A stretch of DNA of 64,000 nucleotides from Thalassobaculaceae bacterium (GTDB lineage Bacteria; Pseudomonadota; Alphaproteobacteria; Thalassobaculales; Thalassobaculaceae), in NCBI GenBank assembly GCA_965228875.1, contig OZ245843.1:788616-852615 (forward strand), given 5' to 3'. The stretch's first letter is position 1; every line of letters starts with the position of its first letter. Position numbers: made by a program. Below, piece after piece: positions 42,165 to 54,100 of this stretch.

Positions 42165-45100
42165 TGATGGCGAGAGACACGCTCGAGATCGTCCGGGAAT
42201 GGCATGAGGCCTTCGACGTTCCGGTGGCCGATGGTCCGACGCTTCCCGAGGCGCGCGCCGGGATGCGGCTGGCGATCCTGGAGGAGGAGATGGCGGAACT
42301 GCGCCAGGCGGTCGAGGCGGGCGATCTGGTCGAAGTGCTCGACGCGCTCTGCGACATTCAGTACGTGCTCGACGGCACGTTCCTGGAGTTCGGCATGCAC
42401 CGCATCAAGGCGGCGGCGATGGCCGAGGTCCATGCCTCGAACTTGTCCAAGCTCGGCACCGATGGCCGCCCGGTGCTTCGCGGCGACGGCAAGGTCCTGA
42501 AAGGACCGAACTTCATCCGTCCTTCCCTGGCGCGCCTGCTTTGTAGAGCAGATCACGATCAGATGGATTCGATCTGAAGCGATCGCACTCCAGGCATCGG
42601 ACGCCGGAGGCGCGGAGGACCTGCCGTGGGGGACGCCGCTGTCTGGCGTGGGCGGACACCCCGGCTCTTCTCCCTCTCAACGTTCCGCCATGGCCGAGAG
42701 GCGAATTCTACTGCGCCGCGGCGAGCGGGAAGTCGCGCAGGCTCTTGCCGCCAGACTTGAACTCGGCTGTCTGCGTATATCCCTCCGACTTCGCGAGCCC
42801 CTCGACACGCGCCGGCACCCTCGAGCCGAGGTCGAACGCGGTGATCGTCTGACCGGACGCGCGCCGGCTGTCCAACTCACTGAGAATGGCGTGGGCGAAC
42901 ACGCCGTTCCGACCGTTGTATCCGTCCAGGGCCTCCTGGGTTTCGGACGACGCGGCCAGAATGAAGTAGCCGGTATCGTTGCCAATCTCGCCCGGGGTGT
43001 CGGTCGGCAGGGCTCCCGAGTGGCAGGTATCGAGAAAAACCATCGTGTTGGCCCCCAACAGACTGCCCAGCAATCCGACCAGCCGGTCCTGATCGATGGC
43101 CTGATCGGGAACCGCGTGGATCCCCTCAACGTTGTGACTGATGAAGTGGTACACGCCGCCATCAACAATGACGCCATGCCCGGCTATGTAGACAACCACA
43201 GTGTCGACCGGCTTGATCCGCTCTGCCACGCTGTCGAAGGCGCTCTGAATGCCCTCCGCCGTCGCTTCCTCGTCGAAGCGCGAGACCACCTGAACATCCT
43301 TGTAGAGCGGGGCACGGGACTGGCTGATCCGCTGCGATACCGAATCCGCATCGCGGCGGGCGAACGAAAGGTCCTGAATGTCGCCCTTGTAGATGTCGAT
43401 CCCCACCGCGATCACATAGAGCGTCGGTTCCGGCGGCGCTTCCGGCTCGGGTACCTTGAGGGTCAGCTCATGGGACTTGCCGAACACGCCGGACGTCGAA
43501 TAGGCCCTGACGTAAAGCTTGTTGAGGCCGGGCGACACGGTGACGACCTTTTCGACGGTCTGAACCTCGACGGCTTCGGTGTCCGCCGGCTTCTTGCGCG
43601 AGAGACCGCGGAACGCCTGGCCGGTTGTCCGGTCGTTCAGAAAAACGTCATACCGGGTCACGGGTTCGGATCCCGGCGTGATCTCGAAGACCAGACGGAC
43701 CCTGTCATGGCCTTCCGGCAGTAGCGACACGGCCGCGGGTGGTGCATCGGCGGACTGTTTTCGAGAAAGACCTCGACGCAACTGGTTGGCGGGATAGCAG
43801 GCGGTGTCGTCGCCCGTATCGGCTACGGCACAGAACCGGACAAGGGTGACGCTCGGCGCCAAGGCGATCGTGTTCTCGACTTCCGGGGCCGCATCCGGAC
43901 GCGCGACGTTGGCCGGTTGGACCAGCCCCACCCGATATCGCATCAGCTCGATATCGTAGAATCGCTTGTAGAGCTGGGAGAAGTCGATCCACCGGGCCAC
44001 CTGCTTGCGGCCACGGTTCAGGACATACCCCGCCAATTCCTGGCCGCCGCCGACCGAATGGGTGAAGTGGCCGTCCGGCGACCAAAGAATCCATCTTCGG
44101 CCGTCCGCGTGCACGAACAGAGACGCGATCTCCTCCAGTTCCTGCCCGGCGACGAGCGAGTACCATCGGATCGTACCGTCCCGGTGGGCGACCACCAGGC
44201 GTTTGCCGTCGGGGGTCGCGACGACGGCGGACGCCGCCGAGAGAACGACCGCCTCCCGCTGTGGCGTGCCGTCCGCCGCATACATCGAGAGTGAATAGTC
44301 GCTGCCGACGACAAAACCGTCATCCGTGAGTTCCGTCGCGCTTCTCGCGATGTCGCGGCGCGAGGACAGGCGGACCAGGCGGCCATCCAGTGTCATCTCC
44401 GGGCTGTCGCGCCAGCCCTCGAGCCTGGAGGGAGGAGCCGGCCTGGCGAAGCCCGGCGCCGGCTCCGGCGCGGCCTTCAGGGAAAGTGTCTTCGCGTCAA
44501 ACCGAAGGGTGCGATCGCGCCCTTCCGCCCGGAAGGAGAAGTCGACGACCGTTCCGTCTTCCGATGTCCTGAACACGCTCTCATACAGGCGTCGGAAGTC
44601 GGCCTTCGGGCTGGATATGCGGAAGAGAAGGCGGCCACTCTCGCCGGCGACGCGGCCCCATGCCGGATCGCCCGTCGCGAACAGGATGTCTCCCTCAGGC
44701 GTCGTCTCCAGGCGGGTGACCGCATCGCGGCTTACCGGTATGTCCGTGAAATCGTCGGGACGGTCGACGCTCCGCCAGCGCCGAACCACGATGTCGCGAT
44801 TGCGGTCGACGACGCCGCCGGACGCCCAGAGTTCGTCGCCCTTCGCGCCGACACGCCAGGCGACCGCGCTGAGGAAGAGTGTCGCCGTGCCCGGCGCATT
44901 CCCCGACAGCGACGTGGCGCGGCGCATGGACCCGACGTCAAGAATGTCCACCCTTGGCCGGTTGGCGTATGCGACCGCGAGTTGGGCACCGTTTGGAGAA
45001 AAACGGACCTGCGCCGGCCGGCCGTCGGGCGCGTTCCATTCCTTCACCGTCGAGAAGTCGTTGTCGTAGAGGCGAACGACCCCGTTTTCGGCCACGGCCG

Positions 45101-51100: not shown

Positions 51101-54100
51101 GGAATGGGTCTCCCCCATCGCCGACAACCGTGAGCGCGCCCGGAACTTGTCGACCACTCCCTGGAGCGCGTCGGCCGGAATCTCCTGGGCGACGACGGTG
51201 TCGATGCCGCTGACCACCTCTCGCTTTTCGGCGTCCCAGACGATGTCCGGGGTGTCGTGCACGTCCACGATCCGGGCGCCCTCGAGGCCGGGCGGCGTGG
51301 TGCCGGGAACGCCCAGGACCGCGACCCGGATATTGCGGTCGGGCGGTGGAGCGACGACCGCCGGTCGACCATGGGCATAGAGCGTGCGTTCCGCGCCGTC
51401 ATCCGCCGAGACGATATTCGGGATCTGCGCCCCCTGCGTCTCGAAGTTGATGTTGCGCAGGACGTACCGTTTCATCTCCGCAAGCTGGATACGGCCGTCG
51501 CCGTCGGTGTCGGCCGCCCCCCGCAAACCGCGCGAGAAGAAGTAGCTCATGGCTCCCCGTGGGACCGCCTGACCGTCCGTGTCGGGCAAGGGGATTTCGG
51601 GAACGAGTTGATCGTCGAGAACGGCACCGAAGGAGATCAGGTTGCTTGGAAACGCCTCCGCCGTCTCCGCCGCCGCGGGGGCATCGAGGCCGGCGAAGAG
51701 ATCGTCTGTCTCTGTGCTTGAGAGCAGATCGCCCTCGATCTTGACGCCTGAAAACCGGTACCGGGGCCTTACCCGCCGATCGACACTCCTGAACGTGGTT
51801 CCGGAGTGGCACGCATCGATCACCAGGACCACCTGCACGTCCCGCTCGGCGGCCTTGCGCACGAAAGCATCGATCTCGTCGTCGAGTATGAACTCGCTGC
51901 GGCCAGCGTCCGCCTTGCCGAAGGCGTGCAGCGGCAGAAACTCGTCGTAGCCATCCTCCTCCGCCGATGAGGCCGGGGCTTCGGCCTGCATCCCGTGACC
52001 CGCATAGGTGAGGAAGACGGTATCACCCGGTCCCGACCGTTCGAGGGCGCCGTTCCAGGCTGCGATGACGGCATCGCGGCGGGCCTCGCCATCCAGCAGT
52101 ACCGTCACATCGGTCATCCCGATGGCTCGGAACGTCGTCTCGAGATCGCGGGCGTCGTTCACGGCGCCACCGAGGTCGGAGAGGATGCCGTCCGGATCGA
52201 GATAGTCGTCGATGCCGACGACGACCGCGCGCCATTGCGTCTCGACGGACGCGGCGACGGTGGCGGTCCACGCGAGCAGAAGACAGGCCGCAATCCCCAG
52301 GACAGCTGCGGTGGCTTGACTAGGACCCGTTGCACGCATTGTCGTACCGCCCGCTCTCCTGGTTGCCTTGTCCGTAGTAGACCTCGACGCGCCGATTGAT
52401 CCGCCAACGCTCCTCCTGTGTGAACCGGTCGGGATTGTCGATGTTCACCGGAATGCGTTCGCCGCACCAAAGCGCGCGGATCGTTCCGGCGAATCCGTTC
52501 TGCTGGAGGTAGGTCCGGATCCGGGTGGCCCGGCGGCCGGACAGGTCGAGGTTGTAGGCGTCGTCGCCGCGTTCGTCGGTGTGCCCGATGATCGTGATCT
52601 CGTTCGGGCTCTCGCGCCGCAGGATCGGGAGCAACCGCTCCGCCGTCACGCGACCCTGCTGGTCAAACTCGTCGGACCCGGTGACGAACGTGATCTGTGG
52701 CGTCTTCTTCGGTACCCCGATCCCCCGGACGCTTGGCGCGAAATAGGCGGCGGTGCCGCCTCCGCGCGTCGTCGGCTCGACCGGGATCTCGGTGAGAACC
52801 AGCGCCTCTGATGCCGCAGCATGAACCGCGTGGATGGTCTCGGCCGAGGGCGCCTTGGCGGTGTAGCCGGTATGCTCCATAAGGTTGAGCGCCTGGAAAT
52901 AGTGTCGCGTTGCGGCGTCGTAGCGTTTCAGGTCCATCGCGAGCGAGCCGAGCTGAGCGCGCATTTCCCAGTGATCGGCATAGGGGAGGTACTCTTCGAC
53001 TTCGCGATAGAGGGCGTCGATTTCGGCTCCCCGCTGGCGCTCGACGCCAGCGATCCGGGCTACGAGGAGACCGAGGTGAGAGCGCGCCGCGATGCGATTC
53101 TTCGGGGGACAGAACACATCGATATCAGTGATCAGCCCGCGGGCGGCGGCACTGTCGTGGGCTTTCAGGCTCTGCGCGAAACTGGTGATGAGGGAGCGAC
53201 AGTTGTTCGCGTCGCCGGCGGTATCGCCTGCTGCCGGACCCGCCAATGCGATCCCAAATACCGCGGCGATCCCGAGGCCGGGTCCGATTAGCCGTTGCCG
53301 CATACTTACGCCTGATCTCCGCGTCATCTCGCTTCGCCCCACCTTCGCCTCGCGTCCGCCACGCGTCGCGTACGGCCTAGCCTTGCCTCGAATTCATCAT
53401 CCGTCCAGGATGGAAATCAACCAAAACCCGAATCCTTGCGCCCTTGCGCTCCCGCCCATTGCAGGGCGCCGCCGGATTTGGTGGATGGACACTGTCGAGC
53501 CGGTCCTTGACGCAGGCGCAGCGATCCGGCGGGGCACCGTGCGACGTGCCGCGGACTCGACCGGGAGCGCGGTGGGGCCGAAAAGAGCTGACTTCCGGGG
53601 ACCGGCGGCGTGTCGGGCAGAGCCGGATCAGCGTGCGACCGCGTGGCGCGGTACGACCGTCTCGGCTGCATCGGCAGGCGGTTCCATCTTCTCCGCGTGG
53701 TGACAGGCGACGGTGTGATCGGTATCGCCGATGGTCCGCAGGGCGGGGATGGCCCGGGCGCAGTCCGCGGTCGCCATCGGGCAGCGGGTGTGGAAGACGC
53801 AGCCCGTGGGTGGGTTCAGGGGGCTCGGCGGGTCGCCTTCGAGCAGGGCGCCACGGCGGCGGGCCCGGGGATCGAGCCGGGGGGCGGCGGCTATCAGCGC
53901 GCGCGTATAGGGGTGTCGCGGCGCCGAGAACACCTGGGCGGCGGGGCCGGTCTCGACCATGCGGCCGAGGTACATGACCACGACCCGGTCGCAGATGTGT
54001 CGCACGATCCCGAGATCGTGGGAGATGAACAGGTAGGTCAGGCGGTGGGCTTCCTGCAGGTCGAGCAGCAGGTTCACCACCTGGGCTTGGATCGACACGT

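What a model noticed while it worked through the whole genome (the two positions that open the first line are those of the whole stretch)
42708..53303. Exported protease operon: inhibitory-type serpin beside a trypsin-orthocaspase fusion and two more orthocaspases
Six same-strand genes g00758-g00753 encode, with hydrophobic signal-like or lipoprotein-like N-termini, an OmpA-domain protein, an orthocaspase (g00757), a three-domain protein joining a trypsin-family serine protease to an orthocaspase and DUF4384 (g00756), a serpin (g00755), an SH3 protein and a WD40-orthocaspase (g00753). All four protease domains keep their catalytic residues (trypsin H-D-S in TAAHC, DIAL, GDSGGP; caspase H and C in xGHG and D(S/A/T)CHSG), and the serpin has an inhibitory-type hinge (G-T-T-A-S-A-A at P15-P9) with Arg-Ser at P2-P1. 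We propose a self-contained periplasmic proteolytic cascade with its own suicide inhibitor. The serpin-orthocaspase/DUF4384 pairing recurs in [...]
Evidence so far: pfam.tsv rows and sequences read directly. neighbours.tsv: Serpin within two genes of Peptidase_C14 in at least 208 genomes, of DUF4384 in at least 163 of 2,778 genomes that hold both (5.9%), of Trypsin in 202; 0 of 62 genomes of the order. Among all 18,023 adjacent family pairs of this genome with n_all_both>=1000 the median share_near_of_both is 4.7%, so 5.9% is ordinary for neighbours and shows recurrence, not a tight rule. In a library search the 6 papers listed of 1,143 held no occurrence of 'orthocaspase' beside 'serpin'.
(Added by a program. 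Inside this text positions count along the whole contig: contig position 788,616 is position 1 of the stretch shown here. "Call 12" and the like, gene names such as g00115 and contig names such as C1 are that model's own, and its searches are not shown. The text may have been shortened before it was handed on; [...] marks where a part breaks off. The agent that wrote the report below was given it as the finding of a first reader that could run no searches.)

Follow-up and report, generated by a model that had tools for sequence, protein, structure and literature searches.

The report
Exported serpin-guarded bacterial protease module
This bacterium carries a gene cluster for exported caspase-like and trypsin-like proteases next to a serpin inhibitor, and the same four-gene core recurs in distant bacteria, which gives a testable idea of what bacterial serpins do.

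Summary
The six minus-strand genes, their domains and catalytic motifs are all there. The conserved unit is a four-gene core, not the six-gene set. The core is an OmpA/Pal-like protein, an orthocaspase with a DUF4384-like tail, a trypsin-orthocaspase-DUF4384 fusion, and a serpin. It recurs in the same order and strand in 9 fetched loci of about five other lineages, and a contiguous caspase-fusion-serpin stretch lies on 87 Rhizobium plasmids.

All 14 module-associated serpins examined keep one Arg at the 14th residue after the hinge Gly, followed by S/A/T. Arg-Ser is therefore more likely P1-P1' on a loop one residue short than P2-P1. Every fusion keeps an Arg before the (I/V)(I/V)GG zymogen cleavage site (Lys in one of 16), and every module protein has a signal-like N-terminus.

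Best reading (about 0.6): an envelope protease system whose serpin restrains its own Arg-specific proteases. This rests on inference; no biochemistry or RNA evidence exists. The fusion architecture is already published (PMC6426788). The serpin link was not found in five library searches. The SH3 gene has no match in any other fetched locus. A WD40-caspase homologue lies near only one other module and seemingly in the closest relative.

The parts
52320..53303 (-). Exported protein with a C-terminal OmpA/Pal-like peptidoglycan-binding domain (first gene of the conserved core)
   Evidence: Pfam OmpA E 1.2e-12. NCBIfam gives only sub-cutoff Pal/YiaD-type hits. Signal-like N-terminus. Homologues sit in the same position in L010, L011, L012, L048, L093, L095, L156 and L166.
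50693..52339 (-). Orthocaspase 'C14a': p20 domain with AGHG / DACHSG, an EF-hand-like loop DTDGDGRIQLAE, and a DUF4384-like C-terminal domain
   Evidence: Pfam Peptidase_C14 4.7e-17 and EF-hand_5 sub-threshold. DUF4384 is sub-threshold at E 0.015 over model 2-79 of 81. hhalign against the fusion's C-terminus gives 95.9% probability, E 5.4e-9, 113 columns. Its start overlaps the OmpA gene's stop by 20 nt.
48363..50699 (-). Three-domain fusion: signal peptide, short propeptide ending in Arg, trypsin-fold protease, orthocaspase p20, DUF4384
   Evidence: Pfam Trypsin 2.8e-44, Peptidase_C14 3.7e-21, DUF4384 3.9e-11. Of the 120 best homologues listed, 118 carry all three families.
49797..50564 (-). 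Trypsin-fold domain with the R|IVGG activation site. Triad His/Asp/Ser is intact. S1 residues are Thr189, Gly216, Ala226, with an insertion before Cys220
   Evidence: Alignment to Der p 3 and protein C chains puts Thr at the Asp189 position. Motif table. The Arg before (I/V)(I/V)GG is nearly invariant in 16 fusions.
49032..49724 (-). Orthocaspase p20 domain of the fusion (SGHG, DSCHSG; Asp two residues before the Cys)
   Evidence: Pocket Asp positions follow TbMC2 as described in PMC6426788 section 17.
48363..48905 (-). C-terminal DUF4384 region: predicted beta-sandwich followed by helices
   Evidence: AlphaFold2 model has mean pLDDT 82 and pTM 0.77. The best structural neighbours are generic Ig/macroglobulin-type sandwiches with Z 7-9. 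Foldseek gave nothing at E <= 0.001.
47000..48304 (-). Serpin with a signal-like N-terminus and an inhibitory-type hinge
   Evidence: Pfam Serpin 2.8e-69, full length. It is the only serpin in the genome. The closest PDB relatives are inhibitory serpins, E 7e-36.
47111..47161 (-). Hinge and reactive-centre loop E-R-G-T-T-A-S-A-A-T-A-I-L-S-L-R-S; Arg397 is the proposed P1
   Evidence: Translation. Arg is at the 14th residue from the hinge Gly in 14 of 14 module-associated serpins.
45835..46935 (-). Lipoprotein-like protein (LAAC lipobox) with a glycine-zipper-like stretch and a bacterial SH3 domain; specific to this lineage
   Evidence: Pfam SH3_3 4.2e-13. Lipobox. No tblastn match in any of the fetched loci.
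42708..45767 (-). Exported WD40 beta-propeller protein with a C-terminal orthocaspase (AGHG, DTCHSG); an accessory that recurs
   Evidence: Pfam. Full-length homologues are common. One lies 3 kb from a module in L156 and others lie next to trypsin genes in L125 and L139. P0142 (75% identical) has the same longest-contig length, 24,259, as serpin P0002 and fusion P0021.

Best explanation
The window holds one copy of an old, mobile, four-gene envelope module, extended here by two lineage-specific genes. All products are exported by Sec-type signals. The OmpA/Pal-like protein probably ties the system to peptidoglycan. Two paralogous orthocaspases, one free and one fused behind a trypsin-fold zymogen, each end in a DUF4384 beta-sandwich. 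The serpin, encoded directly behind the fusion, acts as a suicide inhibitor of the module's own Arg-specific protease activity, using Arg397-Ser398 as P1-P1' on a loop one residue shorter than usual. It thereby sets a threshold against premature or runaway proteolysis in the envelope. A likely second layer: the trypsin domain is made as a zymogen and is released by cleavage after the conserved Arg before IVGG. In the window's clade the trypsin domain lacks Asp189, so this cleavage would fall to an orthocaspase domain, giving a two-step cascade. Shown here: the genes, domains, motifs, recurrence and co-divergence. Inferred: export, inhibition, the P1 assignment, the cascade order, and any physiological role. 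The substrate is unknown; envelope remodelling, controlled lysis or defence are only guesses.
For: Recurrence. The same order and strand (OmpA-protein, C14a, fusion, serpin) occur in L010 and L011 (Rhizobium leguminosarum plasmids, RefSeq annotation), L012 (R. lusitanum), L048 (Minwuia MAG), L093 and L095 (two genomes of one genus), L156 and L166. L097 shows fusion-serpin on a contig that starts inside the fusion. Of 10 fetched loci with a trypsin...DUF4384 protein of this kind, 9 have a serpin directly downstream; L013 is the exception. A 5.3-kb caspase-fusion-serpin stretch is contiguous in 87 of 89 matching plasmid records.

Coupling. There are 4-nt overlaps at fusion/serpin in L048, L093 and L095, and a 13-nt gap in Rhizobium.

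Co-divergence. Serpin and trypsin-domain pairwise identities correlate with r 0.87 over 55 pairs, and 0 of 5000 permutations reach that value. Related sequences inflate this figure.

Specificity match. Arg is invariant in 14 of 14 serpin loops while overall serpin identity falls to 21-41%. Asp189 is present in 8 of 11 fusions tabulated from loci or contigs that also carry a serpin. All three window C14 domains keep Asp two residues before the Cys and the xDA Asp, which form the basic-residue pocket per PMC6426788 section 17.

Zymogen site. Arg (Lys in one) precedes (I/V)(I/V)GG in 16 of 16 fusions.

Export. Signal-like N-termini occur on all four core proteins in six lineages.

Active sites. 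Every module keeps at least one intact C14 dyad, although different copies have decayed: the Rhizobium fusion has SGQG, and Minwuia-type C14a has AGAG/DTGY.

Precedent. Plant and algal serpins inhibit metacaspases (PMC10609998 Table 2, passages seen).

Complex prediction, serpin 75-434 with the fusion's C14 domain 318-600: weak support. Score 0.39, best of 3 controls 0.01. The mark was reached by 116 of 157 solved complexes and 2 of 215 mismatched pairs, but at 0.60 or under by only 18 of those 157 and by both mismatches that passed. Runs agree in at least 64% of contacts, and partner pLDDT is at least 69.
Against: There are no biochemical, localisation or transcript data. Promoter and terminator scans were uninformative. 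By hinge register, Arg is P2 and Ser is P1. Placing Arg at P1 requires a loop one residue short; that CrmA is a precedent for this is recalled and comes from no call. The window clade's trypsin domain has Thr/Ser at 189 and Ala/Thr at 226. Either it is not the serpin's target or its specificity is unconventional. The complex prediction is only a weak pass and no interface was reported. The module is absent from 62 other genomes of the GTDB family, including 10 of the genus, so it is accessory. Five of the 7 other serpin-bearing genomes in a 400-genome class sample have serpins without this module. Minwuia-type serpins have Ala/Ser at P14 and Val at P12, which is less typical for inhibitors.
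Confidence: 0.6

Rival explanations
1. The serpin is aimed at foreign proteases from hosts, predators or competitors, as shown for miropin, siropins and Bifidobacterium serpins. It sits beside the proteases only because exported proteolysis-related genes travel together.
For: The characterised bacterial serpins act on host proteases (PMC8233489 section 12, read). Carriers include plant symbionts, and near-identical DNA occurs in seawater, aquatic and coral metagenomes. The window's own trypsin domain lacks Asp189.
Against: A foreign target would not explain the strict position directly behind the fusion with 4-nt overlaps, the co-divergence with the trypsin domain, or an invariant loop Arg across soil, marine and metagenomic lineages with different neighbours.
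Confidence: 0.15
2. The serpin is not an inhibitor here. It would be a substrate, folding helper or carrier for the fusion protein, or a decoy that is simply cleaved.
For: The loop is one residue shorter than canonical if Arg is the cleaved residue. Some lineages have Val at P12. Non-inhibitory serpins exist, for example the Streptomyces clade mentioned in PMC8233489 section 12.
Against: The window serpin has the canonical E-R-G-T-T-A-S-A-A hinge, matches the full Pfam model, and its best PDB matches are inhibitory serpins.
Confidence: 0.1
3. The cluster is a cytoplasmic conflict or anti-phage system in which caspase-like and trypsin-like proteases are effectors, as in NLR-like or gasdermin-type systems.
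For: PADLOC's generic 'caspase' model hits all three C14 proteins (E 1e-17 to 5e-9), and a ZorB/MotB model hits the OmpA domain. The cluster is accessory and patchy.
Against: All six proteins, and their orthologues in six lineages, begin with signal-like peptides. No NTPase, sensor, gasdermin or nuclease gene is present. The PADLOC hits are at domain level only. NCBIfam 'caspase_w_EACC1' scores (37-58 bits) lie far below its 140-bit cutoff.
Confidence: 0.05
4. The adjacency is incidental: the genes are independent and not co-regulated.
For: Gaps of 58-67 nt separate the last three window genes. No RNA data exist.
Against: The same four-gene order occurs in about six lineages at 21-41% serpin identity, and on 87 plasmids.
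Confidence: 0.03

Closest known systems
Trypsin / QC-dyad pseudo-orthocaspase / DUF4384 proteins of Alphaproteobacteria (Klemencic et al. 2019, PMC6426788)
   Same: Same three-domain architecture. The Rhizobium members of the module family are exactly this QC type (SGQG). The paper notes the intact His-Asp-Ser triad and the C-terminal DUF4384 (passages).
   Different: The window's copy has an intact His-Cys dyad. That paper did not appear among the 3 papers holding both 'serpin' and 'orthocaspase'. The neighbouring OmpA protein, C14a paralogue and serpin are not mentioned in the passages and section I read. Its supplements were not examined.
Serpin-metacaspase inhibition in plants and algae (AtSerpin1 with AtMC9 and AtMC1; CrSERPIN with CrMCA-I)
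   Same: A serpin restrains an Arg/Lys-specific C14 protease of the same organism (PMC10609998 Table 2).
   Different: Those pairs are eukaryotic and, as far as I recall, not genetically linked. Here the pairing is bacterial, exported, operon-like, and includes a serine protease domain.
CrmA-type cross-class serpins (caspase inhibitors)
   Same: A serpin acting on a caspase-fold cysteine protease. The distance from hinge Gly to the proposed P1 is 14 residues, which I recall to be the CrmA spacing.
   Different: P1 is Arg, not Asp. The CrmA loop length is recalled and was not tested here. Two searches found no passage confirming it.
Characterised bacterial serpins (miropin, siropins, Bifidobacterium serpin, thermopin, tengpin)
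   Same: Same fold and inhibitory hinge. Miropin chains are among the PDB matches.
   Different: Those have host or unknown targets and no conserved cognate protease next door. PMC8233489 calls the prokaryotic role 'enigmatic'.
Protease-inhibitor operons such as staphopain-staphostatin (recalled, no call)
   Same: An inhibitor is co-encoded directly behind a secreted cysteine protease to protect the producer.
   Different: Staphostatins are small cytoplasmic lipocalin-like proteins, not serpins. Here the inhibitor is itself exported.

Membership tests
Serpin superfamily, inhibitory class | Full-length serpin fold | tested here: met
   Pfam PF00079 E 2.8e-69, model 4-370 of 370. There are 135 PDB serpin sequences at E <= 1e-20.
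Serpin superfamily, inhibitory class | Hinge consensus: P17 Glu, P15 Gly, P14 Thr/Ser, P12-P9 small residues | tested here: met
   E-R-G-T-T-A-S-A-A at 47135-47161. The consensus itself is recalled.
Serpin superfamily, inhibitory class | Canonical loop length (15 residues from P15 to P1) | tested here: inconclusive
   Register puts Ser at P1 and Arg at P2. Conservation of Arg in 14 of 14 loops argues for Arg as P1 with 14 residues.
Serpin superfamily, inhibitory class | Covalent trapping of a target protease | not testable with these tools
   There is only a weak-support complex prediction.
Peptidase C14, orthocaspase type | p20 domain with a His-Cys dyad | tested here: met
   PF00656 in three proteins. 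Motifs are AGHG/DACHSG, SGHG/DSCHSG and AGHG/DTCHSG.
Peptidase C14, orthocaspase type | Acidic S1 pocket (two Asp, as TbMC2 Asp95 and Asp211) | tested here: met
   Asp lies two residues before the catalytic Cys, and an xDA motif lies upstream, in all three. Positions follow PMC6426788 section 17. This rests on motifs, not on structure.
Peptidase C14, orthocaspase type | Cleavage after Arg/Lys | not testable with these tools
   None.
Peptidase S1 (chymotrypsin fold), trypsin-like specificity | His57-Asp102-Ser195 triad | tested here: met
   TAAHC, DIAL and GDSGGP are invariant in 16 fusions.
Peptidase S1 (chymotrypsin fold), trypsin-like specificity | Asp189 at the base of S1 | tested here: not met
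   Thr aligns with Asp189 of Der p 3. It is Ser in the two closest relatives and Asp in the eight other fusions tabulated.
Peptidase S1 (chymotrypsin fold), trypsin-like specificity | Zymogen activation site before (I/V)(I/V)GG | tested here: met
   GGSR|IVGG. Arg46 is nearly invariant in 16 sequences.
OmpA/Pal peptidoglycan-binding proteins | OmpA-like C-terminal domain | tested here: met
   PF00691 at 48.4 bits against a 27.2 cutoff.
OmpA/Pal peptidoglycan-binding proteins | Membership of a named equivalog (Pal, YiaD, YfiB and others) | tested here: not met
   All 18 NCBIfam hits are below their cutoffs, for example Pal at 47.3 against 125 bits.
Known anti-phage defence systems (PADLOC) | Match to a system-specific protein set | tested here: inconclusive
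   Only a generic 'caspase' model and ZorB/MotB domain hits were found. There was no hit for the serpin or the SH3 protein.

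The most novel reading that the evidence does not exclude
Bacteria possess an ancient extracytoplasmic two-tier protease cascade. 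A calcium-responsive orthocaspase cleaves an Arg-IVGG zymogen site to switch on a fused trypsin-fold protease. A cross-class serpin with a short, Arg-P1 loop traps one or both enzymes. This would be a prokaryotic counterpart of the serpin-regulated cascades and serpin-metacaspase pairs of eukaryotes, and the first cognate endogenous target for a bacterial serpin.
Probability: 0.3. Interest if true: 0.8.

Novelty: new variant of a known kind. Interest (0 to 1): 0.62.

Why it matters
A 2021 phylogenetic survey calls the role of prokaryotic serpins enigmatic and says that prokaryotes lack complex proteolytic signalling pathways (PMC8233489, section 12). The function of proteobacterial orthocaspases is also open. 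A conserved operon-like module gives both questions a concrete experiment. It places a serpin directly behind Arg-specific orthocaspase and trypsin proteases, it has a zymogen site and an invariant loop Arg, and it occurs in genetically tractable, harmless Rhizobium strains. It also offers natural controls: lineages in which one or the other caspase domain has lost its dyad, and a clade whose trypsin domain lost Asp189.

Tried and rejected
- Serpin-based scans of genome contigs and metagenome contigs with alignment A2 found no relatives.
- The fusion-based scans returned mostly plain trypsins, because the patterns used were trypsin motifs. Only about 15 of the 155 loci were informative.
- The store of earlier findings was not open.
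- The promoter and terminator scan of 42000-54000 gave 0 promoter-like and 4 terminator-like sites, no more than in shuffles. No tRNA gene lies in the window.
- No RNA holder was listed among 24 runs. Run X20 is labelled RNA only as a guess. It gave a few short contigs over parts of the cluster at depth 2-5, and I draw nothing on expression from it.
- The island borders could not be set. In two same-genus genomes, similarity to the window stops at about 53,660, right after the dppF-like gene. The other flank (PRA-PH, nrdEF) has no counterpart there, and the PRA-PH protein was found in 0 of 10 same-genus genomes at E <= 1e-20.
- Foldseek against the PDB gave no match at E <= 0.001 for the DUF4384 model. 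VIA-align's best rows (Z 7-9: S-layer, complement and alpha2-macroglobulin MG domains, RbmA) are in the range that the tool calls common for beta-sandwiches. I claim no function from them.
- I found no passage confirming that CrmA's loop is one residue short. That point stays recalled.
- I considered a Tat signal for the WD40-C14 protein (FRRRPDG) and did not pursue it, since the motif is not the usual twin-arginine consensus.
- The weak NCBIfam TagQ-like hit of the SH3 lipoprotein (E 4e-4, 19.7 bits against a 300-bit cutoff) was set aside.

Full report
**What is there**

The region 42,708-53,303 carries six minus-strand ORFs. Pfam gives these assignments:
- an OmpA-domain protein, 52320-53303;
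- an orthocaspase, here called C14a, 50693-52339;
- a Trypsin + Peptidase_C14 + DUF4384 fusion, 48363-50699;
- a serpin, 47000-48304;
- an SH3 protein, 45835-46935;
- a WD40 + Peptidase_C14 protein, 42708-45767.

The fusion most likely starts at GTG 50699. A GGAGA lies just upstream, the start overlaps the preceding stop by 7 nt, and homologues begin at the same ML(R/K). Gene spacing is -20, -7, +58, +64 and +67 nt.

The flanks are unrelated. nrdE/nrdF and a PRA-PH-type gene lie on the plus strand below 42,577. A dpp-like ABC transporter lies on the minus strand above 53,628. The genome has one serpin and five C14 matches, three of them here.

**Export**

Each of the six N-termini has basic residues followed by a 12-residue hydrophobic maximum of 2.3-2.8 on the Kyte-Doolittle scale. 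The SH3 protein (LAAC) and C14a (IAAC) have lipobox-like motifs. More telling, the orthologues of the four core proteins in Rhizobium, Minwuia, the unnamed genus g117 and the closest relatives all show the same kind of N-terminus, with AxA-type ends. This is a heuristic. No dedicated signal-peptide predictor was available.

**The conserved unit**

The serpin's close relatives are few. Two are 70% identical (one from Thalassobaculum salexigens), one is 52%, and the rest are 33% or less. No serpin was found in 62 other genomes of the GTDB family, 10 of them from the same genus. In a 400-genome class sample, 7 genomes had a serpin, none above 33% identity.

The fusion, in contrast, is widespread. 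Of the 120 best hits listed, 118 carry all three Pfam families, and many come from Rhizobium plasmids.

RefSeq annotation of two R. leguminosarum plasmids shows this order: DUF4384/OmpA protein, caspase family protein, trypsin-like serine protease, serpin family protein, Ser/Thr kinase. I searched all fetched loci by tblastn with the six window proteins and ran Pfam on 27 of their ORFs. Results:
- The order OmpA-protein, C14a, fusion, serpin, on one strand, is also in L012 (R. lusitanum), L048 (Minwuia MAG), L093 and L095 (two genomes of one genus), L156 and L166.
- L097 has fusion then serpin, on a contig that begins inside the fusion.
- Of 10 loci with a trypsin...DUF4384 protein of this kind, 9 have the serpin directly downstream. 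L013 does not, within 10 kb.
- Five loci with the reverse arrangement (C14 first, trypsin later: L014, L045, L072, L089, L158) have no serpin.
- Five of the 7 class-sample serpins lie in other contexts.
- Three loci pair a serpin with a plain trypsin (L025, L033, L111).
- A 5.3-kb caspase-fusion-serpin stretch is contiguous in 87 of 89 matching plasmid records.

Start and stop overlaps of 4 nt join fusion and serpin in L048, L093 and L095. Pairwise identities of the serpins and of the trypsin domains in 11 modules correlate with r 0.87 over 55 pairs, and 0 of 5000 permutations reach that value. The figure is inflated by relatedness, but it fits inheritance as one unit. Between lineages the serpins are only 21-41% identical.

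**What is not conserved**

Genes behind the serpin differ between lineages: a kinase in Rhizobium, dihydrodipicolinate synthase and others in g117. The SH3 lipoprotein has no match in any fetched locus.

The WD40-C14 protein belongs to a large family of about 1000-residue proteins. One full-length homologue lies 3 kb from the module in L156, on the other strand, and two others lie beside trypsin genes in L125 and L139. Its 75%-identical relative P0142 shares the longest-contig length of 24,259 with serpin P0002 and fusion P0021. This suggests, but does not prove, that the closest relative has it in the same cluster.

**Reading the parts**

1. *Serpin loop.* The hinge is canonical. In 14 of 14 module-associated serpins, an Arg stands at the 14th residue from the hinge Gly and is followed by Ser, Ala or Thr. 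Register against an alpha1-antitrypsin loop puts that Arg at P2. Its invariance, and the specificity expected of the neighbouring proteases, make Arg-Ser as P1-P1' on a loop one residue short the better reading. I put this at about 0.75.
2. *Trypsin domain.* The triad is invariant. Asp189 is present in Rhizobium, Minwuia, g117, L097, L156 and L166. It is replaced by Thr in the window and by Ser in P0021 and P0025. Those three also have an insertion before Cys220 and Ala/Thr at position 226.
3. *Activation site.* Arg (Lys in one) precedes (I/V)(I/V)GG in all 16 aligned fusions, about 20-25 residues after the signal-like segment. This is the classical zymogen site of this fold.
4. *C14 domains.* All three window copies keep His, Cys and the two pocket Asp positions (positions per PMC6426788 section 17). 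Elsewhere one copy has decayed: the Rhizobium fusion has SGQG, and Minwuia-type C14a has AGAG and DTG(Y/H). Every module still keeps one intact dyad.
5. *C14a and the fusion are paralogues.* C14a ends in a DUF4384-like domain (hhalign 95.9%, E 5.4e-9; Pfam sub-threshold).
6. *Calcium.* Both carry an EF-hand-like loop: DTDGDGRIQLAE in C14a and DGNQDGKVTHAE in the fusion. This hints at calcium control.
7. *DUF4384 fold.* The model is a confident beta-sandwich plus helices (pLDDT 82). Its structural neighbours are generic.

**Mechanism proposed**

The module is an exported, probably peptidoglycan-tethered protease system. Its serpin restrains its own Arg-directed proteases. An orthocaspase domain may fire the trypsin zymogen, and this would be obligatory in the window's clade if Thr189 abolishes Arg specificity.

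A complex prediction of the serpin with the fusion's C14 domain gave weak support. The score was 0.39, and the best of 3 controls was 0.01. The mark was reached by 116 of 157 solved complexes and 2 of 215 mismatched pairs, but at 0.60 or under by only 18 of those 157 and by both mismatches that passed. Runs agreed in at least 64% of contacts, and partner pLDDT was at least 69. No step of this mechanism has been measured.

**Rivals**

The rivals are a serpin against foreign proteases, a non-inhibitory serpin, a cytoplasmic defence system, and chance adjacency. They are weighed in the Rival explanations section. The first cannot be excluded. The last is contradicted for the four-gene core.

**Known or new**

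The trypsin / QC-pseudo-orthocaspase / DUF4384 architecture is in print (PMC6426788, passages and section 17 read). Serpin inhibition of metacaspases is known in plants and an alga (PMC10609998, passages). WD40-orthocaspases are known from cyanobacteria (PMC7475262, passages). The genes are routinely annotated in RefSeq.

I found no paper linking a bacterial serpin to orthocaspase or trypsin neighbours. The searches were:
- 'serpin' + 'orthocaspase': 3 papers hold both terms; the 2 listed are on eukaryotic (green-alga; plant, fungal and protist) metacaspases, and the third was not shown;
- 'serpin' + 'metacaspase' + 'bacteria' + 'operon': 3 papers, unrelated;
- 'prokaryotic serpins' + 'caspase': 6 papers;
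- 'bacterial serpin' + 'gene neighbo': 0 papers;
- 'Rhizobium leguminosarum' + 'serpin': 8 papers, unrelated by title and abstract, one checked.

The library holds only open-access PubMed Central papers and bioRxiv, and the supplements of PMC6426788 were not read. PADLOC and NCBIfam place none of the six proteins in a named system or equivalog.

**Population note**

DNA nearly identical to the cluster is held by 15 runs at half or more of its sampled words, among 20 holding rows from 12 studies. Most of those runs are labelled marine, seawater, aquatic or coral metagenomes. Contigs of three such runs cover the cluster at mostly 95-100% identity. The only listed indel is an 11-nt deletion at 53,346, upstream of the OmpA gene's ATG.

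**Verdict**

The finding is a new variant of known kinds, namely serpin-protease pairs and orthocaspase fusions. It makes the endogenous role of a bacterial serpin directly testable.

Noticed in passing
L010, L012, L048, L093, L095, L156, L166 versus window 48363-52339: The two caspase domains of the module have decayed in a complementary way across lineages. The Rhizobium fusion has Gln for the catalytic His while its C14a is intact. Minwuia-type C14a has lost both His and Cys while its fusion is intact. L156's fusion has no C14 domain at all (Trypsin-DUF4384). Every module keeps one intact dyad.
   Followed up: partly
window 50693-52339 and 48363-50699: EF-hand-like 12-residue loops (DTDGDGRIQLAE and DGNQDGKVTHAE) sit after the p20 domain of both orthocaspase proteins. 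The loop is conserved in C14a homologues and degraded in the Rhizobium pseudo-enzyme fusion.
   Followed up: partly
window 48363-48905: The DUF4384 region is predicted with confidence as a beta-sandwich followed by two helices and a last strand. Its best structural neighbours include macroglobulin (MG) domains of complement C5/C3/C4 and alpha2-macroglobulins (Z 7.2-8.6, rmsd about 2 A over about 90 residues), but such Z values are common for sandwiches.
   Followed up: partly
window 42032-42577 (+): The PRA-PH/MazG-like gene next to the cluster was found in none of 10 other genomes of the genus at E <= 1e-20. The variable region may therefore extend beyond the six genes.
   Followed up: no
window about 53,660: In two same-genus genomes (G048, G046), similarity to the window ends right after the dppF-like ATPase gene. 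Nothing like the cluster or nrdEF follows there.
   Followed up: partly
window 53346: One metagenome contig (run X5) lacks 11 nt here, upstream of the ATG at 53303 and inside the longer GTG-started ORF. This fits the shorter start for the OmpA gene.
   Followed up: no
L010 13665-16070, L011 11087-13492, L012 13625-16021: In Rhizobium the serpin is followed by an 800-residue Ser/Thr kinase gene. FHA and Tad-pilus genes lie nearby on the other strand. A preprint notes that one proteobacterial kinase family carries DUF4384 (10.1101/2025.01.12.632604, passage). I did not check whether this kinase does.
   Followed up: no
G000:C1:2068229-2068819 and 4434368-4434994 (outside the window): Two further Peptidase_C14 genes lie elsewhere in the genome. 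Their contexts were not examined.
   Followed up: no
window 38917-42167 (+): Class Ib-type ribonucleotide reductase genes: an NrdE-like protein with the RNR_N domain, and an NrdF-like small chain. They lie just downstream of the cluster on the other strand.
   Followed up: no
L025, L033, L111: Hyphomicrobiaceae MAGs and one metagenome contig pair a plain trypsin (no C14 or DUF4384) with a serpin. In L025 and L033 the loop has the same Arg-Ser at the 14th and 15th residues. The L111 serpin is cut off before the loop.
   Followed up: partly
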